The notes under the pieces were generated by a model. That model was not told the origin of the DNA, did not search any database, and was given only the letters and a program-made list of their open reading frames with translations. Both the position numbers and the translations under genes were made by a program. From positions 10,100 through 40,906 of the forward strand of contig SHMW01000030.1 in NCBI GenBank assembly GCA_008080735.1: 30,807 bases of DNA. Reading direction: 5' to 3'. Positions 12,010 through 17,912 of this stretch are shown here, piece by piece. Source of the DNA: Promethearchaeota archaeon (GTDB lineage: Archaea > Asgardarchaeota > Lokiarchaeia > Sigyniarchaeales > SOKP01). The stretch's first letter is position 1, and each line of letters begins with the position of its first letter.

Positions 12010-12546
12010 ATGACGCGAAAAAGATTAAAACAAGGACTCGTACAAGTTTATTTTGGCAGGGGTAAGGGAAAAACTACTGCTGCGCTGGGGCAAGGCTTGC
12101 GTGCTACTGGTCACGGATTTAAGGTATATATGATTCAATTTATGAAAGGAAATACACAATACGGAGAAATCGACGCAATCAAACAAATTCCCCATTTCCA
12201 GGTCAAACAATTTGGTACAACAGAGTTAATAGAAATTCCTGGCGATATTGATTTGGAAGAGGGGAAAAAGGCCTTAGAATTTGCAAAAGAGATAATTACC
12301 AGCGATGAATATGATATTGTGATTTTAGATGAAATTGGGGTCGCGCTTCAAATGGGTGTAATTAAAATCGATGAAGTAATGGAAATAATCGAAAATAAAC
12401 CAGAAAAGGTCGAATTGGTGATTACGGGAGGTCATCCAATTCATCCGAAATTAAGAGAACGCGCAGACCTTCTTACAGAAATGAAAATGATTAAGCACTA
12501 TTATTCCAGTAAGGGTATTCAAGCCCGTTATGGAATTGAGTATTAA
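12010..12546 (+). CDS. cobO: ATP:corrinoid adenosyltransferase, CobO/BtuR (CobA) type
   Basis: GRGKGKTTAALG, IQFMKG, ILDEI, LVITG and KHYY...GIEY motifs. Confidence 0.93.
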   Translation: MTRKRLKQGLVQVYFGRGKGKTTAALGQGLRATGHGFKVYMIQFMKGNTQYGEIDAIKQIPHFQVKQFGTTELIEIPGDIDLEEGKKALEFAKEIITSDEYDIVILDEIGVALQMGVIKIDEVMEIIENKPEKVELVITGGHPIHPKLRERADLLTEMKMIKHYYSSKGIQARYGIEY

Positions 12547-12752: not shown

Positions 12753-14700
12753 ATGAATATGGATGATAATCTCAAGAAGTATGAAGAATTACATAGAAAA
12801 TCTTTAAATGATCTTGAAGAGTTTTGGACACCAATTGCTGAGAAAATTTATTGGTATAAAAAATGGGATAAAATTTTAGACGATAGCAACCCTCCATTTT
12901 ATAAATGGTTTGTTGGCGGAGAGACGAATACCTGTTATAACGCAGTTGATAGATGGGCAGAAAAATTCCCAAATAAGCCCGCCTATATTTGGTATTCCTC
13001 AGAACTCAATGAAGAAAGAATTCTTACCTATAAAGATTTACTAAAGGAAGTAAATAAATTTGCGAGAGTTTTAAAGGATTATGGTGTTGAGAAGGGAGAT
13101 CGGATTGTTATTTATTTACCGATGATTCCAGAAGCAGCTATCGCCATGCTAGCATGCGTTCGAATAGGTGCGATACACTCTGTTGTTTTTGCGGGTTTTT
13201 CCGTTCGATCTTTAGGGGTAAGAATTGATGATTCCAGACCTAAGCTTGTCATTTGTGCAGACGGAGGAAAAAGGGGAGGAAAAGAAGTTGATCTCAAATC
13301 GATTGTGGATGAAACTTTAGAAACAACTGATTATAAAGTTCCTCATGCAGTTGTCGTGAATCGGAATATTGTAGACCATAAGATGGTTGAAGGGAGAGAT
13401 GTATATTGGAGTGATTTAATGGAAAAGAAAGATGAGGATATATTTGTCGAACCAGTGAGAGTAAAAAGTACGGACCCCTCTTACATTCTCTATACAAGCG
13501 GAACTACAGGAAAACCCAAAGGAGTCGTTCGAGATACGGGAGGGCATTTGGTTGCGTTATATCATTCGATGAAATCGATTTTTAACACTGATACCGAGGA
13601 TGTTTATTTTGCCACTAGCGATATTGGATGGGTAGTCGGACATTCCTACATTATCTATGGGCCTTTATTTAAAGGGTGTACGTCTATAATTTATGAAGGA
13701 ACCCCAGTCTATCCCGAACCAAATGCGTGGTTTAAAGTTATTGAAAAATATAACGTAAATACTGTTTTTTCAGCTCCAACGGCATTCAGGATTTTAAGAA
13801 AATTCGATGAGAAATATATTACGGATAATGACCTAAGCTCATTACAAACAATCTATCTGGCTGGAGAACCGCTTGATGAGGCAACTTATGAATGGATGAA
13901 ACGCGTTTTAGGAGAGGGAATTGCTATTGTTGACAATTATTGGCAGACCGAAATTTTTTGTGAGAAAGAATTTCTCTTTCAAACGGTACACAGGCTGGCC
14001 AATATTAGCGAATCCCTATGGTATTGCCCCACTTAAAATTAAACCTGGAAGCCCGACTAAACCAATGTGGGGTTGGAATTTAAAAGTAGTTGATTTTGAA
14101 GGAAATGAAATTGAAAAGGGCAATAAAGGGTATCTCGTTGCTGTTCCGCCCACACCTCCCGCGGTCCTTTTAACTGTCTATAGAAATGATGAGAGATATG
14201 TAAATTCATATTATAGAGCTTTTGCTGGTCATGATTATTACTCAACTGGGGACTATGGGATCGAAGACGAAGATGGTTATTTTTACGTGCTGGGTCGAGC
14301 AGATGAAGTAATAAAAGTAGCAGGTCATCGATTAGGGACTGGTGAGATGGAAGCGGTCTTTTCCACGCATCCTCACGTTGCTGAAGTAAGTTGTATTGGT
14401 GTAGAAGATGAAGTGAAAGGTGAAGTTCCAATTGCTATGGTTGTACTAAAACAAGGTTATGAGGGAACTCCAGAGTTAGAGCAGGAAATGAAAACCCTAA
14501 TAAGAGAAGAAATAGGACCTGTAGCAACCCCTAAAGCCGTTTATTTCGTGAAGGCACTTCCAAAAACCCGCTCTGGAAAGGTAATTCGAAGAGCTATAAA
14601 AAATCTAGCCGAAGGGAAAGAACCCGGTGATTTAAGCACGATAGAAGATCCTTCTACCATAGATAAAATTAAGCAAATCCTGGAAGAAGCGAGTCAATAA
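12753..14700 (+). CDS. prpE: Propionate/acetate--CoA ligase (PrpE/ACS family), interrupted by a 37-nt insert; join(12753..13952,13990..14700) = 636 aa
   Basis: LYTSGTTGKPKG, SDIGWVVGHSY, FSAPTA, AGEPL, DNYWQTE|TGWPIL (PrpE-like), GRADEVI and LPKTRSGK motifs. The two ORF-track pieces join seamlessly when 13953-13989 is removed. Confidence 0.85.
13953..13989 (+). other. Candidate archaeal bulge-helix-bulge-type mRNA intron (37 nt)
   Basis: Central 4-bp helix ACCG(13947-50)/CGGT(13984-87). Cuts 2 nt 3' of each helix strand (after 13952 and 13989) match the insert ends. Inner hairpin GAGAAA/TTTCTC; exon stem TATTGG/CCAATA. Confidence 0.8.
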
Positions 14701-14799: not shown

Positions 14800-15243
14800 T
14801 TAATTCATAACCATTACCACAGCCTCTCCGTCAGTGACTAGTTCCTCTTCTTGATTTAAGACTTGGGTTGTACAGCGAATGAATTTTAGCTTGCCATCTT
14901 TTTTAGTATATTTTTCCTTAACGGTCGCAACCGCAGTTAATTCGTCTCCGAAATATACAGGTTTTACAAATCTGACCGATTGCTCTCCATATAATATGCC
15001 CGGACCAAATAGTTCCATACCTAATACCGCAGAGATGAGTCCAACGCTTATTACGCCATGTGCAACTTGTTCTCCAAACATTTGCGTTTTGGCAAACTCG
15101 GGGTCGATATGAAGCGGATTATAATCCCCTGATACCTCAGCAAACTTCATCACATCCTCTTCAGTTATAGTTTTTGTAAATTTCGCGGAATCTCCAATCT
15201 CATAATCATCGAATTTAACTGGCTCTAAATTAGATTTACTCAT
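14800..15243 (-). CDS. MaoC/PhaJ-family (R)-specific enoyl-CoA hydratase
   Basis: FAEVSGDYNPLHID, AHG, GPGILY and FVKPVYFGD motifs. Confidence 0.92.
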   Translation of the reverse strand: MSKSNLEPVKFDDYEIGDSAKFTKTITEEDVMKFAEVSGDYNPLHIDPEFAKTQMFGEQVAHGVISVGLISAVLGMELFGPGILYGEQSVRFVKPVYFGDELTAVATVKEKYTKKDGKLKFIRCTTQVLNQEEELVTDGEAVVMVMN

Positions 15244-15305: not shown

Positions 15306-17912
15306 TTAGGATTTGATAGAATCTTTCACATTTTCAATGTTCCTTTTAAGGGTCTGAGTCTTTGGAGCATTTTCCAGTCCTAAATCTCTAAAAATAGTCA
15401 ATGCATTTTCGAGACTATTTAAGCTATCAACTAATTTTTTTTGTTCGAAATAAATGAGCCCAATATTATTGAGATGATTAGCTTTAGAATAGAGATCGCC
15501 TAGTTGATCATCAATTTCTAAAGCCATCTTATAATTATGTAAGGCCTCATCATATTTTCCAAAATCATAATTAATCAATCCAATATGACCATAATCGGTT
15601 GCAATTGCAGAACGATCACCTAAAATTTCATCGATTTTAAGTGCTTCTTTAAAATTATTGAGTGCTTCATCATATTTCTTTTCTCTATAATATATTAAAC
15701 CTAAATTACTAAGGCACGCTCCTTTTTTTGAAATATCTCCTAAGTAATCTGAAATTTCAAGGGCTTCGGTATAATTCTTAAGGGCATTCTCAAAATCCCC
15801 TTGATCATTATAAATCTGTCCTATATTATTAAGGAGCGTTACTTTTCCTTGGAGATCTCCTAATTCATTAACAATTTCAAATGCTTTCTCATATTTTATT
15901 AAAGCTTCTTTTAGAAGACCTTGCAATTTATATATTATTGCCATATTATTTAGGCAAGATATTTCTCCTATAATGTCTCCTGTTGATTGAGCAATTTCAA
16001 CTGCTTTTTCATAATGGTTCACAGCATTTCCATAATCTCCCCAAGAATAATATACTAAACCTATATTATTCAGATATGTTCCTTGACGCGAAATATCTCC
16101 GAGATCTTTAACTATATTGAGCGCTTTATTATAATAATTAAGCGCATTTTCATAATCACTTTGCCTAAAATAAACTAAGCCTATATTATTATATTGAGAA
16201 GCTTTTCCTGACAAATCTCCTAAATCGTCGAAAATTAGGATAGCTTCCTTGCAAGCATTTACCGCATCCATATATCTTCCACACGCTTCATATACCTGTC
16301 CTAAGTTTGTAAGAACACTTGCCTTTTCAGAAGAGTAATCTAATTTTCCAAATACCTTAGTGCTTTCTTGGTACTTCTGTATTGATTTATCATAATTTCC
16401 CAAGAAGAATAAGATTCTTCCTAGATTACTAAGTAAATTACCTATCTCGTATTGATCTTTAAATTTCTTTGCAATCTTAAACGCTTTTTCATAATTTTTA
16501 AGTGCATTTTGGTAGTTTCCTATCAATCTAAAAATGTATCCAATTTTTTTGAATGTAGACATTTTTCCAGATGGATCTCTCATCTCTTCATAGAGTTTAA
16601 GAGCCTTTTCATAGGTTTCAATTGCGTTTGAATAATTCTCTAAGCGATCGTATGTTTGGGCTATTCTATTTAAAATATTAATCTGTTTTGGAATGTCTCC
16701 ATATTCTTGTGCTATATTAAGGGCCTCTTGATAGTATTTTAAAGCTTGTTCTCCCTCCCCTAACATATATTTAATTTTGCCAAAGTTATACTGGGCGTAT
16801 AATTTCCATAATATCTCTTCTCTTTTCTCCGCAAGCGATTGAATTATTCCTAAACATCTTTCTGAGTCGTTGAATTTATTCAAAACATAATAAATTTCAC
16901 CTGCAATCGCATATTTTTGAAACTCATCGGGAGGGGTTAAATTTTCAAGAAACCATTGGTTCGGACTTACTAAAAACGTTTTACTGGTTAATGAGGATTC
17001 TTTTGTCAAAAAATCACTGATTAATTGAGAAGTATTTGCTTCTATTAAATAAATACGCTTTGAATTGCTTGTTCTATGTAAATCATAAAGCGATTGATAT
17101 ATTTCATCCGAAAGTTCATTGATTTCAGTTAAATCTTCTCCGATCTCAAAAACTCTTTCTTTTTCACCAGCATCTTCATTTTGGTTGATCCAAATTAGAG
17201 ATTTAAAGCTTTTTATCTCCTTTATAAGAGGTAAAATATCCAGATCATTACATGCGGAATAACCCATGACCAATAATATACGATTTTTAGAAACTTTTTC
17301 AAATAGTCGATATTTATAGGGTTCTAATTGGACTTCTTCGTTTTGTTCTTTAAGAGTTCCGATCCTTTTTATAGTATCAATCAAGGAATTGTGGGTATCC
17401 TCTTGTGTAATAACATTTTTAGAAGACCCATGTAGTTTAAAGACTGCCTTTTTATCATTTTTACAAAGCTTTATTGGATCCCTCGCTTTTTCATAATCCT
17501 TTTTAGTTATTACAGGGATGATTTTATCTGATGGAACCCCCAATTCCTTTAAGTTATACTCAATAAGGCAATCGAAATTTGGCGTAATTACGAAATGACC
17601 CGCTTGGAGCATTTTGGATAGAAACAGATGATAAATATTAGGAATGTCGCATAAAGCATAATAATTACAAATTTTCAGTTCTGGATCTATATGATTACGA
17701 ATTATCTCTAATAATTGCTCGAATTTCAAATATGATAAATCCTTGAGCTGTTCAATTTCTCCTTCAGCGCATGTAAATTCAATAATAGCATCAATCATCG
17801 TTTTTGCCATGGGAAGATTTGAAGGTCTCTCTACAGAACATCCAGCCCCGACAAGGATAACTAATTTTTCCCCTTCAATCAAGCCTTTAACAGAGGAATT
17901 GATTTCTTTCAT
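15306..17912 (-). CDS. SIR2-like domain fused to a long TPR array
   Basis: N-terminal ILVGAGCS, TPNFD, KLHGS and MGYS..D motifs. C-terminal ~500 aa of ~40-aa TPR-like repeats (LNNIGLVY...GDY..AL..Y.KAL.I...LGD). Confidence 0.85.
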   Translation of the reverse strand: MKEINSSVKGLIEGEKLVILVGAGCSVERPSNLPMAKTMIDAIIEFTCAEGEIEQLKDLSYLKFEQLLEIIRNHIDPELKICNYYALCDIPNIYHLFLSKMLQAGHFVITPNFDCLIEYNLKELGVPSDKIIPVITKKDYEKARDPIKLCKNDKKAVFKLHGSSKNVITQEDTHNSLIDTIKRIGTLKEQNEEVQLEPYKYRLFEKVSKNRILLVMGYSACNDLDILPLIKEIKSFKSLIWINQNEDAGEKERVFEIGEDLTEINELSDEIYQSLYDLHRTSNSKRIYLIEANTSQLISDFLTKESSLTSKTFLVSPNQWFLENLTPPDEFQKYAIAGEIYYVLNKFNDSERCLGIIQSLAEKREEILWKLYAQYNFGKIKYMLGEGEQALKYYQEALNIAQEYGDIPKQINILNRIAQTYDRLENYSNAIETYEKALKLYEEMRDPSGKMSTFKKIGYIFRLIGNYQNALKNYEKAFKIAKKFKDQYEIGNLLSNLGRILFFLGNYDKSIQKYQESTKVFGKLDYSSEKASVLTNLGQVYEACGRYMDAVNACKEAILIFDDLGDLSGKASQYNNIGLVYFRQSDYENALNYYNKALNIVKDLGDISRQGTYLNNIGLVYYSWGDYGNAVNHYEKAVEIAQSTGDIIGEISCLNNMAIIYKLQGLLKEALIKYEKAFEIVNELGDLQGKVTLLNNIGQIYNDQGDFENALKNYTEALEISDYLGDISKKGACLSNLGLIYYREKKYDEALNNFKEALKIDEILGDRSAIATDYGHIGLINYDFGKYDEALHNYKMALEIDDQLGDLYSKANHLNNIGLIYFEQKKLVDSLNSLENALTIFRDLGLENAPKTQTLKRNIENVKDSIKS

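What the first reader, a model, noticed from the sequence alone, without database searches (positions are those of the whole stretch)
13938..14004. Candidate endonuclease-spliced (BHB-type) intron in a protein-coding gene, prpE-like acyl-CoA ligase, of a probable Asgard archaeon
Seen in sequence: the two ORFs are one gene interrupted by exactly 37 nt (ATTTTTTGTGAGAAAGAATTTCTCTTTCAAACGGTAC, 13953-13989). Removing it restores DNYWQTE-TGWPIL with no residue lost or duplicated, giving 636 aa. The junctions fold together. ACCG (13947-50, exon 1) pairs with CGGU (13984-87, intron). A 3-nt AAA bulge (13951-53) is closed by UUU/AAA, and there is an inner GAGAAA/UUUCUC hairpin. The 3' side is either a 3-nt ACA bulge closed by G13946-C13991 or a larger loop closed by the exon stem UAUUGG-CAG/CUG-G-CCAAUA. 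Established knowledge: archaeal EndA cuts after the second nucleotide of each bulge flanking a 4-bp helix. Here that predicts cuts after 13952 and 13989, exactly the boundaries deduced independently from the protein motif. Such introns are typical of tRNA/rRNA and only rarely known in mRNAs (e.g. crenarchaeal cbf5). Inference: this mRNA is spliced by EndA plus RtcB. Annotation pipelines would call it a frameshifted pseudogene, so such introns may be hidden genome-wide.
Basis: partly seen in the sequence, partly recalled or inferred. Interest (0 to 1): 0.95.

Follow-up and report, generated by a model that had tools for sequence, protein, structure and literature searches.

The report
tRNA-type mini-intron in Asgard ligase gene
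A 37-base structured insert splits an acyl-CoA ligase gene of a Loki-type Asgard archaeon; relatives show that both halves and the insert are kept by selection and that its ends have the shape cut by the tRNA-splicing enzyme, so the mRNA is very probably spliced, which the papers I could search report for only one archaeal protein gene (cbf5).

Summary
A PrpE/Acs-like ligase gene (12753-14700, +) is broken by 37 nt (13953-13989). Removing them joins WQTE|TGWP, and the two halves cover positions 2-391 and 392-628 of the PrpE profile.

It is not an assembly artefact or a dead gene. Homologous inserts (37 or 61 nt, both 1 mod 3) sit at the same codon boundary in three lineages from five assemblies. 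Nine close orthologues lack it exactly. Both exons are under strong purifying selection (dN/dS 0.02-0.04 at dS about 1.5). The insert diverges about five times more slowly than synonymous sites.

The protein-defined boundaries coincide with a bulge-helix-bulge geometry found at 6e-4 of genome positions. The 3' side is relaxed. The exon bases that pair with the intron (Thr codon ACC) occur in all intron-bearing lineages and in no intron-less close orthologue.

The genome encodes an alpha/beta EndA pair of the crenarchaeal broad-specificity type and two RtcB. I checked six further mini-introns of the same build. One shows five compensatory pairs.

The scan had already noted this kind of intron on other DNA of this genome.

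Verdict: interpretation supported, confidence about 0.8.

The parts
12753..13952 (+). Exon 1, codons 1-400 (ACAS_N plus most of the AMP-binding domain), ending ...DNYWQTE
   Evidence: NCBIfam PrpE profile positions 2-391. dN/dS is 0.036 against L038.
13953..13989 (+). 37-nt intervening sequence (candidate BHB intron). Unspliced reading adds 27 out-of-frame codons and a TAA stop at 14034-14036.
   Evidence: Homologous 37-nt copy in L038/L039 and 61-nt copy in G012/L065. Unique in the genome.
13990..14700 (+). Exon 2, codons 401-636 plus stop, starting TGWPILANPYG (end of the AMP-binding domain plus AMP-binding_C)
   Evidence: Profile positions 392-628. dN/dS is 0.019 against L038.
13947..13950 (+). 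Central helix H, 5' strand ACCG (exon: Thr ACC plus the G of Glu). It pairs with 13984-13987.
   Evidence: ACC is used in all 3 intron-bearing lineages and in none of the 9 intron-less close orthologues.
13984..13987 (+). Central helix H, 3' strand CGGT (intron)
   Evidence: CGG is invariant. T becomes C in L038/L039, which turns the A-U pair into A.C.
13951..13953 (+). 5' bulge AA|A, predicted cut after 13952
   Evidence: Geometry. The cut equals the boundary defined by the protein.
13988..13990 (+). 3' bulge AC|A, predicted cut after 13989. It is AG|A in L038 and AA|A in G012.
   Evidence: It is closed only by G13946-C13991; otherwise it is part of a 7-nt loop, 13988-13994.
13954..13983 (+). 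Intron interior. Inner helix TTT 13954-56 with AAA 13981-83. Hairpin GAGAAA 13962-67 with TTTCTC 13971-76, or the alternative GAAAGA 13964-69 with TCTTTC 13975-80.
   Evidence: G012 carries a 24-nt extra hairpin inserted after 13957.
13938..13946 (+). Outer exon-exon helix, 5' arm TATTGGCAG
   Evidence: TATTGGC/GCCAATA, 7 bp perfect. Intact in all intron-bearers and in only 1 of 9 intron-less orthologues.
13995..14004 (+). Outer exon-exon helix, 3' arm CTGGCCAATA

Best explanation
The 37 nt at 13953-13989 are an archaeal bulge-helix-bulge (tRNA-type) intron inside the pre-mRNA of a PrpE/Acs-like acyl-CoA ligase of a Loki-type Asgard archaeon. Exon bases ACCG pair with intron bases CGGU to form the 4-bp central helix. 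A 3-nt bulge (AA|A) lies on the 5' side and a relaxed bulge or loop (AC|A) on the 3' side. These are framed by an intron helix and hairpin and by a 7-9-bp exon-exon helix. The heterotetrameric (alpha-beta)2 splicing endonuclease cuts after 13952 and after 13989, and RtcB joins the exons. The result is CAG ACC GAA|ACA GGC UGG and a 636-aa enzyme. Shown here: the insert, its exact boundaries, its homologues, the selection on exons and intron, the geometry, and the presence of the enzymes. Inferred: cleavage by EndA, ligation by RtcB, and that splicing happens at all.
For: (1) Exact junction. The halves meet at PrpE profile positions 391|392. Uninterrupted orthologues read WQTETGWP.
(2) Independent assemblies carry a homologous insert at the same codon boundary. 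L038 and L039 (two JGI metagenomes) have 37 nt with 5 differences. G012 and L065 (a Logan run) have 61 nt with the same ends plus a 24-nt internal hairpin. All lengths are 1 mod 3.
(3) Selection. Against L038, dN/dS is 0.036 for exon 1 and 0.019 for exon 2 at dS about 1.5. Against G012, pN is 0.11-0.15 with saturated pS. The first 25 codons of exon 2 show 10 synonymous changes and 1 replacement between G000 and L038 (read). In G012 a TAA lies directly before them in their frame.
(4) The intron differs at 13.5% of sites against 65% at synonymous sites. The changes fall in loops, in the second bulge base and in one helix-end pair.
(5) The geometry at the protein-defined register has a probability of about 1e-3. 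Only one register fits in each of the three lineages.
(6) Exon co-variation with the intron. Thr is ACC in 3 of 3 intron-bearing lineages and 0 of 9 intron-less ones. TATTGGC/GCCAATA is intact in 3 of 3 against 1 of 9.
(7) Patchy, base-exact presence and absence. Intron-less GCA_004524645 nests beside intron-bearing Ga0102944, G003 beside G000, and G009 beside G012.
(8) Machinery. There is an EndA alpha subunit with the Tyr-His-Lys triad, aligned without gaps to the A. pernix catalytic subunit including the KPR of its specific loop. There is a beta paralogue lacking Tyr and His, and there are two RtcB genes. The literature reports that Asgard have (alpha-beta)2 EndA with the L1 loop, and links that loop insertion to recognition of relaxed BHB motifs (PMC5829648).
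(9) Same build elsewhere. A 30-nt intron in an acetoacetyl-CoA-synthetase-like paralogue occurs in 6 genomes of 5 genera and is exactly absent in 15. Five of its 9 inner-helix pairs are compensatory, and 0 of 500 shuffles reach this. Further cases are in csp, an ABC ATPase, dnaG and two in another Acs paralogue. A 29-nt tRNA-Thr intron has the same layout.
(10) There is no target-site duplication, no terminal inverted repeat, no second copy in the genome and no Rfam family.
Against: The motif is relaxed: the 3' bulge is closed by one G-C pair only, or else is a 7-nt loop. The inner helix is three A-U pairs. The BHB fold lies about 4-6 kcal/mol above the minimum-energy fold. There is no compensatory change in the focal intron's helices, and the one change in the central helix (L038) breaks an A-U pair to A.C. 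A genome-wide scan for BHB geometry that fuses two ORFs showed no excess over shifted cut sites, so geometry plus ORF fusion alone is not evidence. The case rests on homology and selection. The near-identity of the intron's 3' half across saturated synonymous divergence could also mean recent lateral spread rather than constraint.
Confidence: 0.8

Rival explanations
1. The insert is removed from the RNA, but not by EndA and RtcB. An unknown nuclease/ligase pair or an RNA-guided system would recognise the hairpin. Alternatively, splicing is partial and regulatory, with the 427-aa truncated product as a second output.
For: The motif is relaxed, is not the minimum-energy fold, and shows no covariation in the central helix. 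The high sequence conservation of the intron's 3' half exceeds what structure alone needs.
Against: Cut sites predicted by the EndA rule equal the protein-defined boundaries here and in six other inserts. A tRNA intron of the genome has the same layout. A broad-specificity EndA is present. I know of no other archaeal system that excises 30-60-nt hairpins.
Confidence: 0.09
2. Translational recoding: ribosomes shift +1 inside the insert, or hop over it, so no RNA splicing is needed.
For: The lengths (37 and 61 nt) are both 1 mod 3. In G000 and L038 the exon-2 frame is open through the insert. An A/U-rich run follows GAA.
Against: In G012/L065 the exon-2 frame has four stops inside the insert, the last directly before exon 2. 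A shift could therefore occur only at the final codon, which differs among lineages (GUA-C, GCA-G, GUA-A). The product would carry 12 or 20 extra residues inside the invariant YWQTETGW motif. There is no matching take-off and landing codon pair (GAA against UAC/CAG/UAA). Stop-bearing in-frame 30-nt inserts of the same build elsewhere cannot be read through by frameshifting.
Confidence: 0.04
3. Split enzyme: the two ORFs are translated separately and assemble non-covalently.
For: Public gene callers annotate two genes, 457 and 209 aa. G000 has a TTG at 13921 in the exon-2 frame.
Against: In G012 the first ATG after the stop in the exon-2 frame is 25 codons downstream (gene call 2840 against exon start 2765); a TTG lies at about codon 15. 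Yet those 25 codons are conserved at protein level with many synonymous changes. The break lies inside a core motif and not between domains. This rival gives no reason for the conservation of the insert itself or for its BHB geometry.
Confidence: 0.04
4. Dead or dying gene, or artefact: a neutral insertion, transposon footprint or assembly error in a pseudogene.
For: Taken alone, a 37-nt frame-breaking insert looks like a frameshifted pseudogene. The genome bin has 7% contamination.
Against: Five assemblies from three lineages carry it. dN/dS is 0.02-0.04 on both sides over dS about 1.5. The insert is conserved (13.5% against 65%). There is no target-site duplication, no terminal inverted repeat and no other copy. 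G000 has no second close copy of the gene; the next paralogue is 43% identical.
Confidence: 0.02

Closest known systems
BHB intron of the cbf5 (pseudouridine synthase) pre-mRNA in Desulfurococcales and Sulfolobales (Watanabe 2002; Yoshinari 2006; Yokobori 2009, PMC2738675)
   Same: [quoted passage not shown] The host has a hetero-oligomeric EndA. Gain and loss among related lineages are patchy and leave exact junctions.
   Different: The host lineage differs (Loki-type Asgard, not Crenarchaeota), and the host gene is a metabolic acyl-CoA ligase. This intron is one of several such introns in the same genome, whereas cbf5 stands alone in its genomes. Splicing was shown experimentally for cbf5 and is not shown here.
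[quoted passage not shown]
   Same: The geometry and cut rule are the same, and the size class and layout match (1 nt, hairpin, 4-nt helix strand, 2 nt), as in the 29-nt tRNA-Thr(GGU) intron of this genome. The presumed enzymes are the same.
   Different: The exon half of the motif is coding sequence, so it is maintained through synonymous codon choice (ACC, CAG, UAU, CCA, AUA). No tRNA body helps recognition.
Unconventional cytoplasmic splicing of HAC1/XBP1/bZIP60 mRNA (Ire1 cleavage; ligation by RtcB in metazoans and by Trl1-type tRNA ligases in yeast and plants); from my own knowledge
   Same: A short frame-changing intron defined by RNA stem-loops is cut by a protein endonuclease and joined by a tRNA ligase, which changes the C-terminal reading frame.
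   Different: The endonuclease and motif differ (Ire1 twin stem-loops). That system is regulated by stress. No Ire1 is expected here, and regulation is untested.
Translational bypassing, phage T4 gene 60 type; from my own knowledge
   Same: A short (50-nt) coding gap with a hairpin inside an essential gene that is not removed from the DNA.
   Different: Bypassing needs matched take-off and landing codons and a stop after take-off. These are not present here.

Membership tests
Archaeal BHB (EndA-spliced) intron | 4-bp central helix between exon and intron in the register that puts both cuts 2 nt beyond it | tested here: met
   ACCG 13947-50 pairs with CGGU 13984-87, 4 of 4 in G000 and G012 and 3 of 4 (A.C) in L038. 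Only this register fits. The genome-wide frequency of the geometry is 5.8e-4.
Archaeal BHB (EndA-spliced) intron | 3-nt bulge on the 5' strand closed by an intron helix (h') | tested here: met
   AA|A 13951-53 is closed by UUU 13954-56 with AAA 13981-83. This is conserved in all copies.
Archaeal BHB (EndA-spliced) intron | 3-nt bulge on the 3' strand closed by an exon-exon helix (h) of at least 2 bp | tested here: inconclusive
   Only one G-C pair (13946-13991) closes a 3-nt bulge. Otherwise a 7-nt loop is closed by a 7-9-bp exon helix. This makes it a relaxed (HBh'-like) motif.
Archaeal BHB (EndA-spliced) intron | Predicted cuts give a functional mature RNA | tested here: met
   Cuts after 13952 and 13989 restore WQTE|TGWP, at profile positions 391|392.
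Archaeal BHB (EndA-spliced) intron | Helices supported by compensatory changes | tested here: inconclusive
   The focal intron has no informative double change in its three lineages. Support is indirect: exon codon choice co-occurs with the intron. A sister case in the paralogue has 5 compensatory pairs out of 9.
Archaeal BHB (EndA-spliced) intron | Host encodes a splicing endonuclease able to cut relaxed motifs, and an RtcB ligase | tested here: met
   Alpha subunit (Tyr-His-Lys triad, crenarchaeal-type loop with KPR), beta paralogue and 2 RtcB. The literature agrees.
Archaeal BHB (EndA-spliced) intron | Excision seen in RNA (spliced junction, circular or linear intron) | not testable with these tools
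Propionate--CoA ligase PrpE (NCBIfam NF007815 / TIGR02316 equivalogs) | Whole-protein score above the curated equivalog cut-off | tested here: not met
   Exon scores of 562 and 279 bits sum to below 955. The intact 93%-identical orthologue P0002 scores 872.6 (cut-off 955) on NF007815 and 802 (cut-off 827) on TIGR02316. It is best called a PrpE/Acs-like AMP-forming acyl-CoA ligase; substrate unknown.
AMP-forming acyl-CoA synthetase superfamily (Pfam ACAS_N, AMP-binding, AMP-binding_C) | Three domains in order and above the gathering scores | tested here: met
   ACAS_N 85 bits, AMP-binding 251 bits (profile 2-323 of 384 in exon 1), AMP-binding_C 96 bits in exon 2.
Programmed translational bypass or +1 frameshift site | Matched take-off and landing codons, or a conserved shift site with an open target frame | tested here: not met
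   GAA against UAC/CAG/UAA. In G012 the target frame is closed up to the last codon of the insert.

The most novel reading that the evidence does not exclude
This intron is one of a whole population of EndA/RtcB-spliced mini-introns in protein-coding genes of this Lokiarchaeial family. At least seven were checked here, in ligases, csp, dnaG and an ABC ATPase. They are gained and lost at single sites, much as spliceosomal introns are in eukaryotes. They may spread wherever exon sequence can supply half of a BHB, and some may act as splicing-dependent switches. [quoted passage not shown]
Probability: 0.35. Interest if true: 0.95.

Novelty: new member of a known kind. Interest (0 to 1): 0.8.

Why it matters
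Protein-gene introns removed by the tRNA-splicing enzymes are documented, in the papers I could search, for one archaeal gene only (cbf5, Crenarchaeota).

A second, well-supported case in a metabolic gene of an Asgard archaeon, with sister cases in the same genome, would have three consequences. First, mRNA splicing by EndA and RtcB would not be a crenarchaeal curiosity but part of gene expression in the lineage nearest to eukaryotes. Second, gene callers systematically split or discard such genes (here 457 and 209 aa), so Asgard proteomes and metabolic reconstructions are biased. Third, intron gain, exact loss and exon-intron co-adaptation could be studied in a prokaryote.

It also gives concrete, cheap experiments: a defined junction, a defined 83-nt substrate and two defined enzyme subunits.

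Tried and rejected
No statement about expression can be made.

(2) Genome-wide de novo census. I scanned both strands for BHB geometry (L 12-130) whose excision fuses two open frames of at least 60 codons. As a control I shifted the 3' cut by 1-2 nt. There was no excess at the true register under any structural filter. Gene-gene junctions with hairpins swamp the few real cases, and the control is blurred by neighbouring registers. So the census needs homology, and geometry plus ORF fusion alone must not be taken as evidence.

(3) Minimum-energy folding. The BHB is not the MFE. The 83-nt region has z = -2.5, and the 53-nt core is not better than shuffles.

(4) Covariation on the focal intron. 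There are too few and too similar copies.

(5) Pattern search for the intron core in 185,579 species genomes. It found only the G012-type contig and one chance hit in a Streptococcaceae MAG. The 37-mer has no second copy in G000 at up to 3 mismatches.

(6) ARAGORN-based survey of tRNA introns. There were only 26 tRNA calls, many of them mis-modelled, and only 2-3 give clean motifs.

(7) The profilin Pfam search was uninformative, because its control rang nowhere.

(8) Rfam: no family matched.

(9) Rejected readings: transposon footprint (no TSD, no TIR, single copy), group I/II intron (far too small), intein (contains frame shift and stops), assembly artefact (five assemblies).
Full report
WHAT IS THERE. 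The window is G000:C30:10100-40906 of a 4.15-Mb, 33.6% G+C, 93%-complete bin. Two ORFs lie on the + strand: 12753..14036 (427 aa) and 13921..14700 (259 aa), with frames offset by +1. The first carries ACAS_N and AMP-binding profile positions 2-323 of 384. The second carries AMP-binding_C. Removing 13953-13989 (37 nt) gives a 636-aa product. On the NCBIfam propionate--CoA ligase profile the two parts cover 2-391 and 392-628 of 629, so the join is exact. The scores stay below the equivalog cut-offs even for an intact orthologue, so I call it a PrpE/Acs-like acyl-CoA ligase. The nearest homologues are named Promethearchaeota/Lokiarchaeota, and the genome has an ESCRT-II EAP30 domain over its cut-off. 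'Loki-type Asgard archaeon' is therefore reasonable.

NOT AN ARTEFACT, NOT A DEAD GENE. Only 9 of 135 genomes of the family hold this orthologue. Seven of those nine are uninterrupted and read WQTETGWP.
- G012 belongs to another genus. It is broken at the same codon boundary by 61 nt with the same first 5 and last 30 or so bases as the window's insert, plus a 24-nt internal hairpin. A Logan assembly (SRR7048220) has the identical 61-nt form, and its public gene calls split the gene into 457 and 209 aa.
- Two JGI metagenome contigs (Ga0102944_1001039 and Ga0209918_1001274, about 91% protein identity) carry a 37-nt form with 5 differences.
- An NCBI MAG contig (GCA_004524645.1, 92.8% identity) and Ga0190360/Ga0190334 lack the insert to the base.
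- In the protein tree the intron-less GCA_004524645 groups with intron-bearing Ga0102944 (92/95). G003 is sister to G000 and G009 is sister to G012. The distribution therefore needs either several exact losses or repeated gains of a homologous sequence at one site.

SELECTION. Against L038, dS is about 1.5, with dN/dS 0.036 for exon 1 and 0.019 for exon 2. Against G012, synonymous sites are saturated (pS 0.74-0.79) while pN is 0.11-0.15. Exon 2 is thus kept in a frame that exon 1 cannot reach without removal of 1 mod 3 bases. The insert itself differs at 5 of 37 sites against 65% at synonymous sites. The differences lie in the 5' internal loop, the hairpin loop, the second base of the 3' bulge and the outermost pair of the central helix.

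THE MOTIF. With the cut after the second base of each bulge, the protein-defined boundaries require the following:
- helix (i-5..i-2) with (j-5..j-2): ACCG/CGGU, 4 of 4;
- 5' bulge AA|A;
- inner helix UUU/AAA;
- 3' bulge AC|A, closed by G13946-C13991.
Beyond these lies a 7-9-bp exon-exon helix, TATTGGC(AG)/(CTG)GCCAATA. This geometry occurs at 5.8e-4 of genome positions for L=37. Of the two registers that give the same mRNA, only one fits, in all three lineages.

The motif is relaxed on the 3' side and is not the minimum-energy fold (-13.4 to -15.5 against -19.6 kcal/mol). In L038 the A-U pair becomes A.C.

The exon half of the motif is held by codon choice. Thr is ACC in all three intron-bearing lineages and ACA/ACT/ACG in all nine intron-less close orthologues. 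The 7-bp exon helix is intact in 3 of 3 against 1 of 9. These lineages are related, so the counts are suggestive and are not a formal test.

MACHINERY. G000 has two EndA catalytic-domain genes and two RtcB genes.
- The C72 protein keeps the Tyr-His-Lys triad. It aligns without gaps to the A. pernix catalytic subunit (3p1z_B), including the Lys-Pro-Arg of the crenarchaeal loop. The His is the residue replaced in 3ajv.
- The C37 protein lacks Tyr and His, as a structural beta subunit would.
- Kaneta et al. report (alpha-beta)2 EndA with the L1 loop in Asgard and link that loop to relaxed-motif cleavage (PMC5829648). Yokobori et al. link the cbf5 pre-mRNA intron to the same enzyme type (PMC2738675).

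THE SAME BUILD ELSEWHERE. Prompted partly by earlier notes of this scan, I checked sequences myself.
- An acetoacetyl-CoA-synthetase-like paralogue (G000:C43) has a 30-nt stop-bearing insert at SWM|MWNW. It is present in 6 genomes of 5 genera and exactly absent in 15. Five of its nine inner-helix pairs change on both sides, and 0 of 500 shuffles reach this. The CCA that pairs with the Trp codon and the AA|A bulge are invariant.
- Inserts of 29, 32 and 32 nt break csp, an ABC ATPase and dnaG.
- Another Acs paralogue has two 30-nt inserts in G021 and one in G010, one of them at YWQ|TETG, three bases from the focal site.
- In each case exactly one register allowed by the protein junction gives the geometry.
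- A 29-nt tRNA-Thr(GGU) intron has the same layout. ARAGORN finds only 26 tRNAs, as expected for heavily interrupted tRNA genes (compare bioRxiv 10.64898/2026.10.13.758758).

RIVALS.
- Frameshifting or hopping fails on G012, where the exon-2 frame is closed up to the last insert codon. It also lacks matched codons and would place 12-20 residues inside YWQTETGW.
- A split enzyme fails because the codons before the first ATG of exon 2 are conserved.
- Pseudogene or artefact fails on the selection data and the five assemblies.
- A mobile-element footprint fails because there is no duplication, no inverted ends and only a single copy.
- A different excision machinery cannot be excluded.

LIMITS. 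There are no RNA data. My structure-plus-ORF census showed no excess over shifted controls, so the number of such introns in the genome remains unknown.

KNOWN OR NEW. Searches of the held literature found BHB introns in protein genes only for crenarchaeal cbf5. They found nothing on Asgard mRNAs. The mechanism is of a known kind. The host gene, the lineage and the plurality of cases are new. The scan itself had already flagged sister cases in this genome.

Noticed in passing
G000:C43:27376-27405 (+), held as L064:977-1006: A 30-nt in-frame insert with a TAA lies at SWM|MWNW of an acetoacetyl-CoA-synthetase-like paralogue. It is present in 6 genomes of 5 genera and exactly absent in 15. BHB geometry fits with an A.G mismatch in the central helix. 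There are 5 compensatory pairs in the 9-bp inner helix.
   Followed up: yes
L030 (G021:C2) about 2605-2634 and 2707-2736; L029 (G010:C52, minus strand) near 1500: A second Acs paralogue carries two 30-nt stop-bearing inserts in G021 (GEPI|NP and YWQ|TETG) and one in G010. The YWQ|TETG site is only 3 nt from the focal intron's site, but the sequences are unrelated. This suggests a hot spot set by exon sequence.
   Followed up: partly
G000:C25 (+) 31213-31241; G000:C4 (-) and G000:C77 (-), coordinates as: Inserts of 29, 32 and 32 nt break a cold-shock protein, an ABC ATPase (Walker B / D-loop) and dnaG. Each has one register that gives BHB geometry. Their orthologues were not examined.
   Followed up: partly
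whole genome G000: ARAGORN finds only 26 tRNA genes in a 93%-complete 4.1-Mb genome, and 16 of them are called with introns. This points to heavily and non-canonically interrupted tRNA genes. tRNA-Thr(GGU) on C88 has a 29-nt intron laid out like the mRNA mini-introns.
   Followed up: partly
L065:1501-3469 (Logan SRR7048220_270); protein P0001 (JGI): Public gene calls record the interrupted gene as two separate proteins (457 and 209 aa; 427 aa). Protein databases therefore hold truncated forms of this ligase.
   Followed up: yes
proteins P0089 (493 aa, contig 64.8 kb) and P0083 (502 aa): More distant homologues (57-59% identity) lack the C-terminal domain although they do not lie at a contig end (P0089). 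They may be interrupted at another position.
   Followed up: no
window 12010-12546 (+), 14800-15243 (-); L065, L066: The neighbourhood is conserved: CobA/CobO/BtuR-type ATP:cob(I)alamin adenosyltransferase upstream, and MaoC dehydratase and a thiolase downstream. This fits a short-chain acyl-CoA metabolism cluster.
   Followed up: no
window 15306-17912 (-): An 868-aa ORF consists mostly of TPR-like repeats after an N-terminal domain of about 300 aa. It was not analysed.
   Followed up: no
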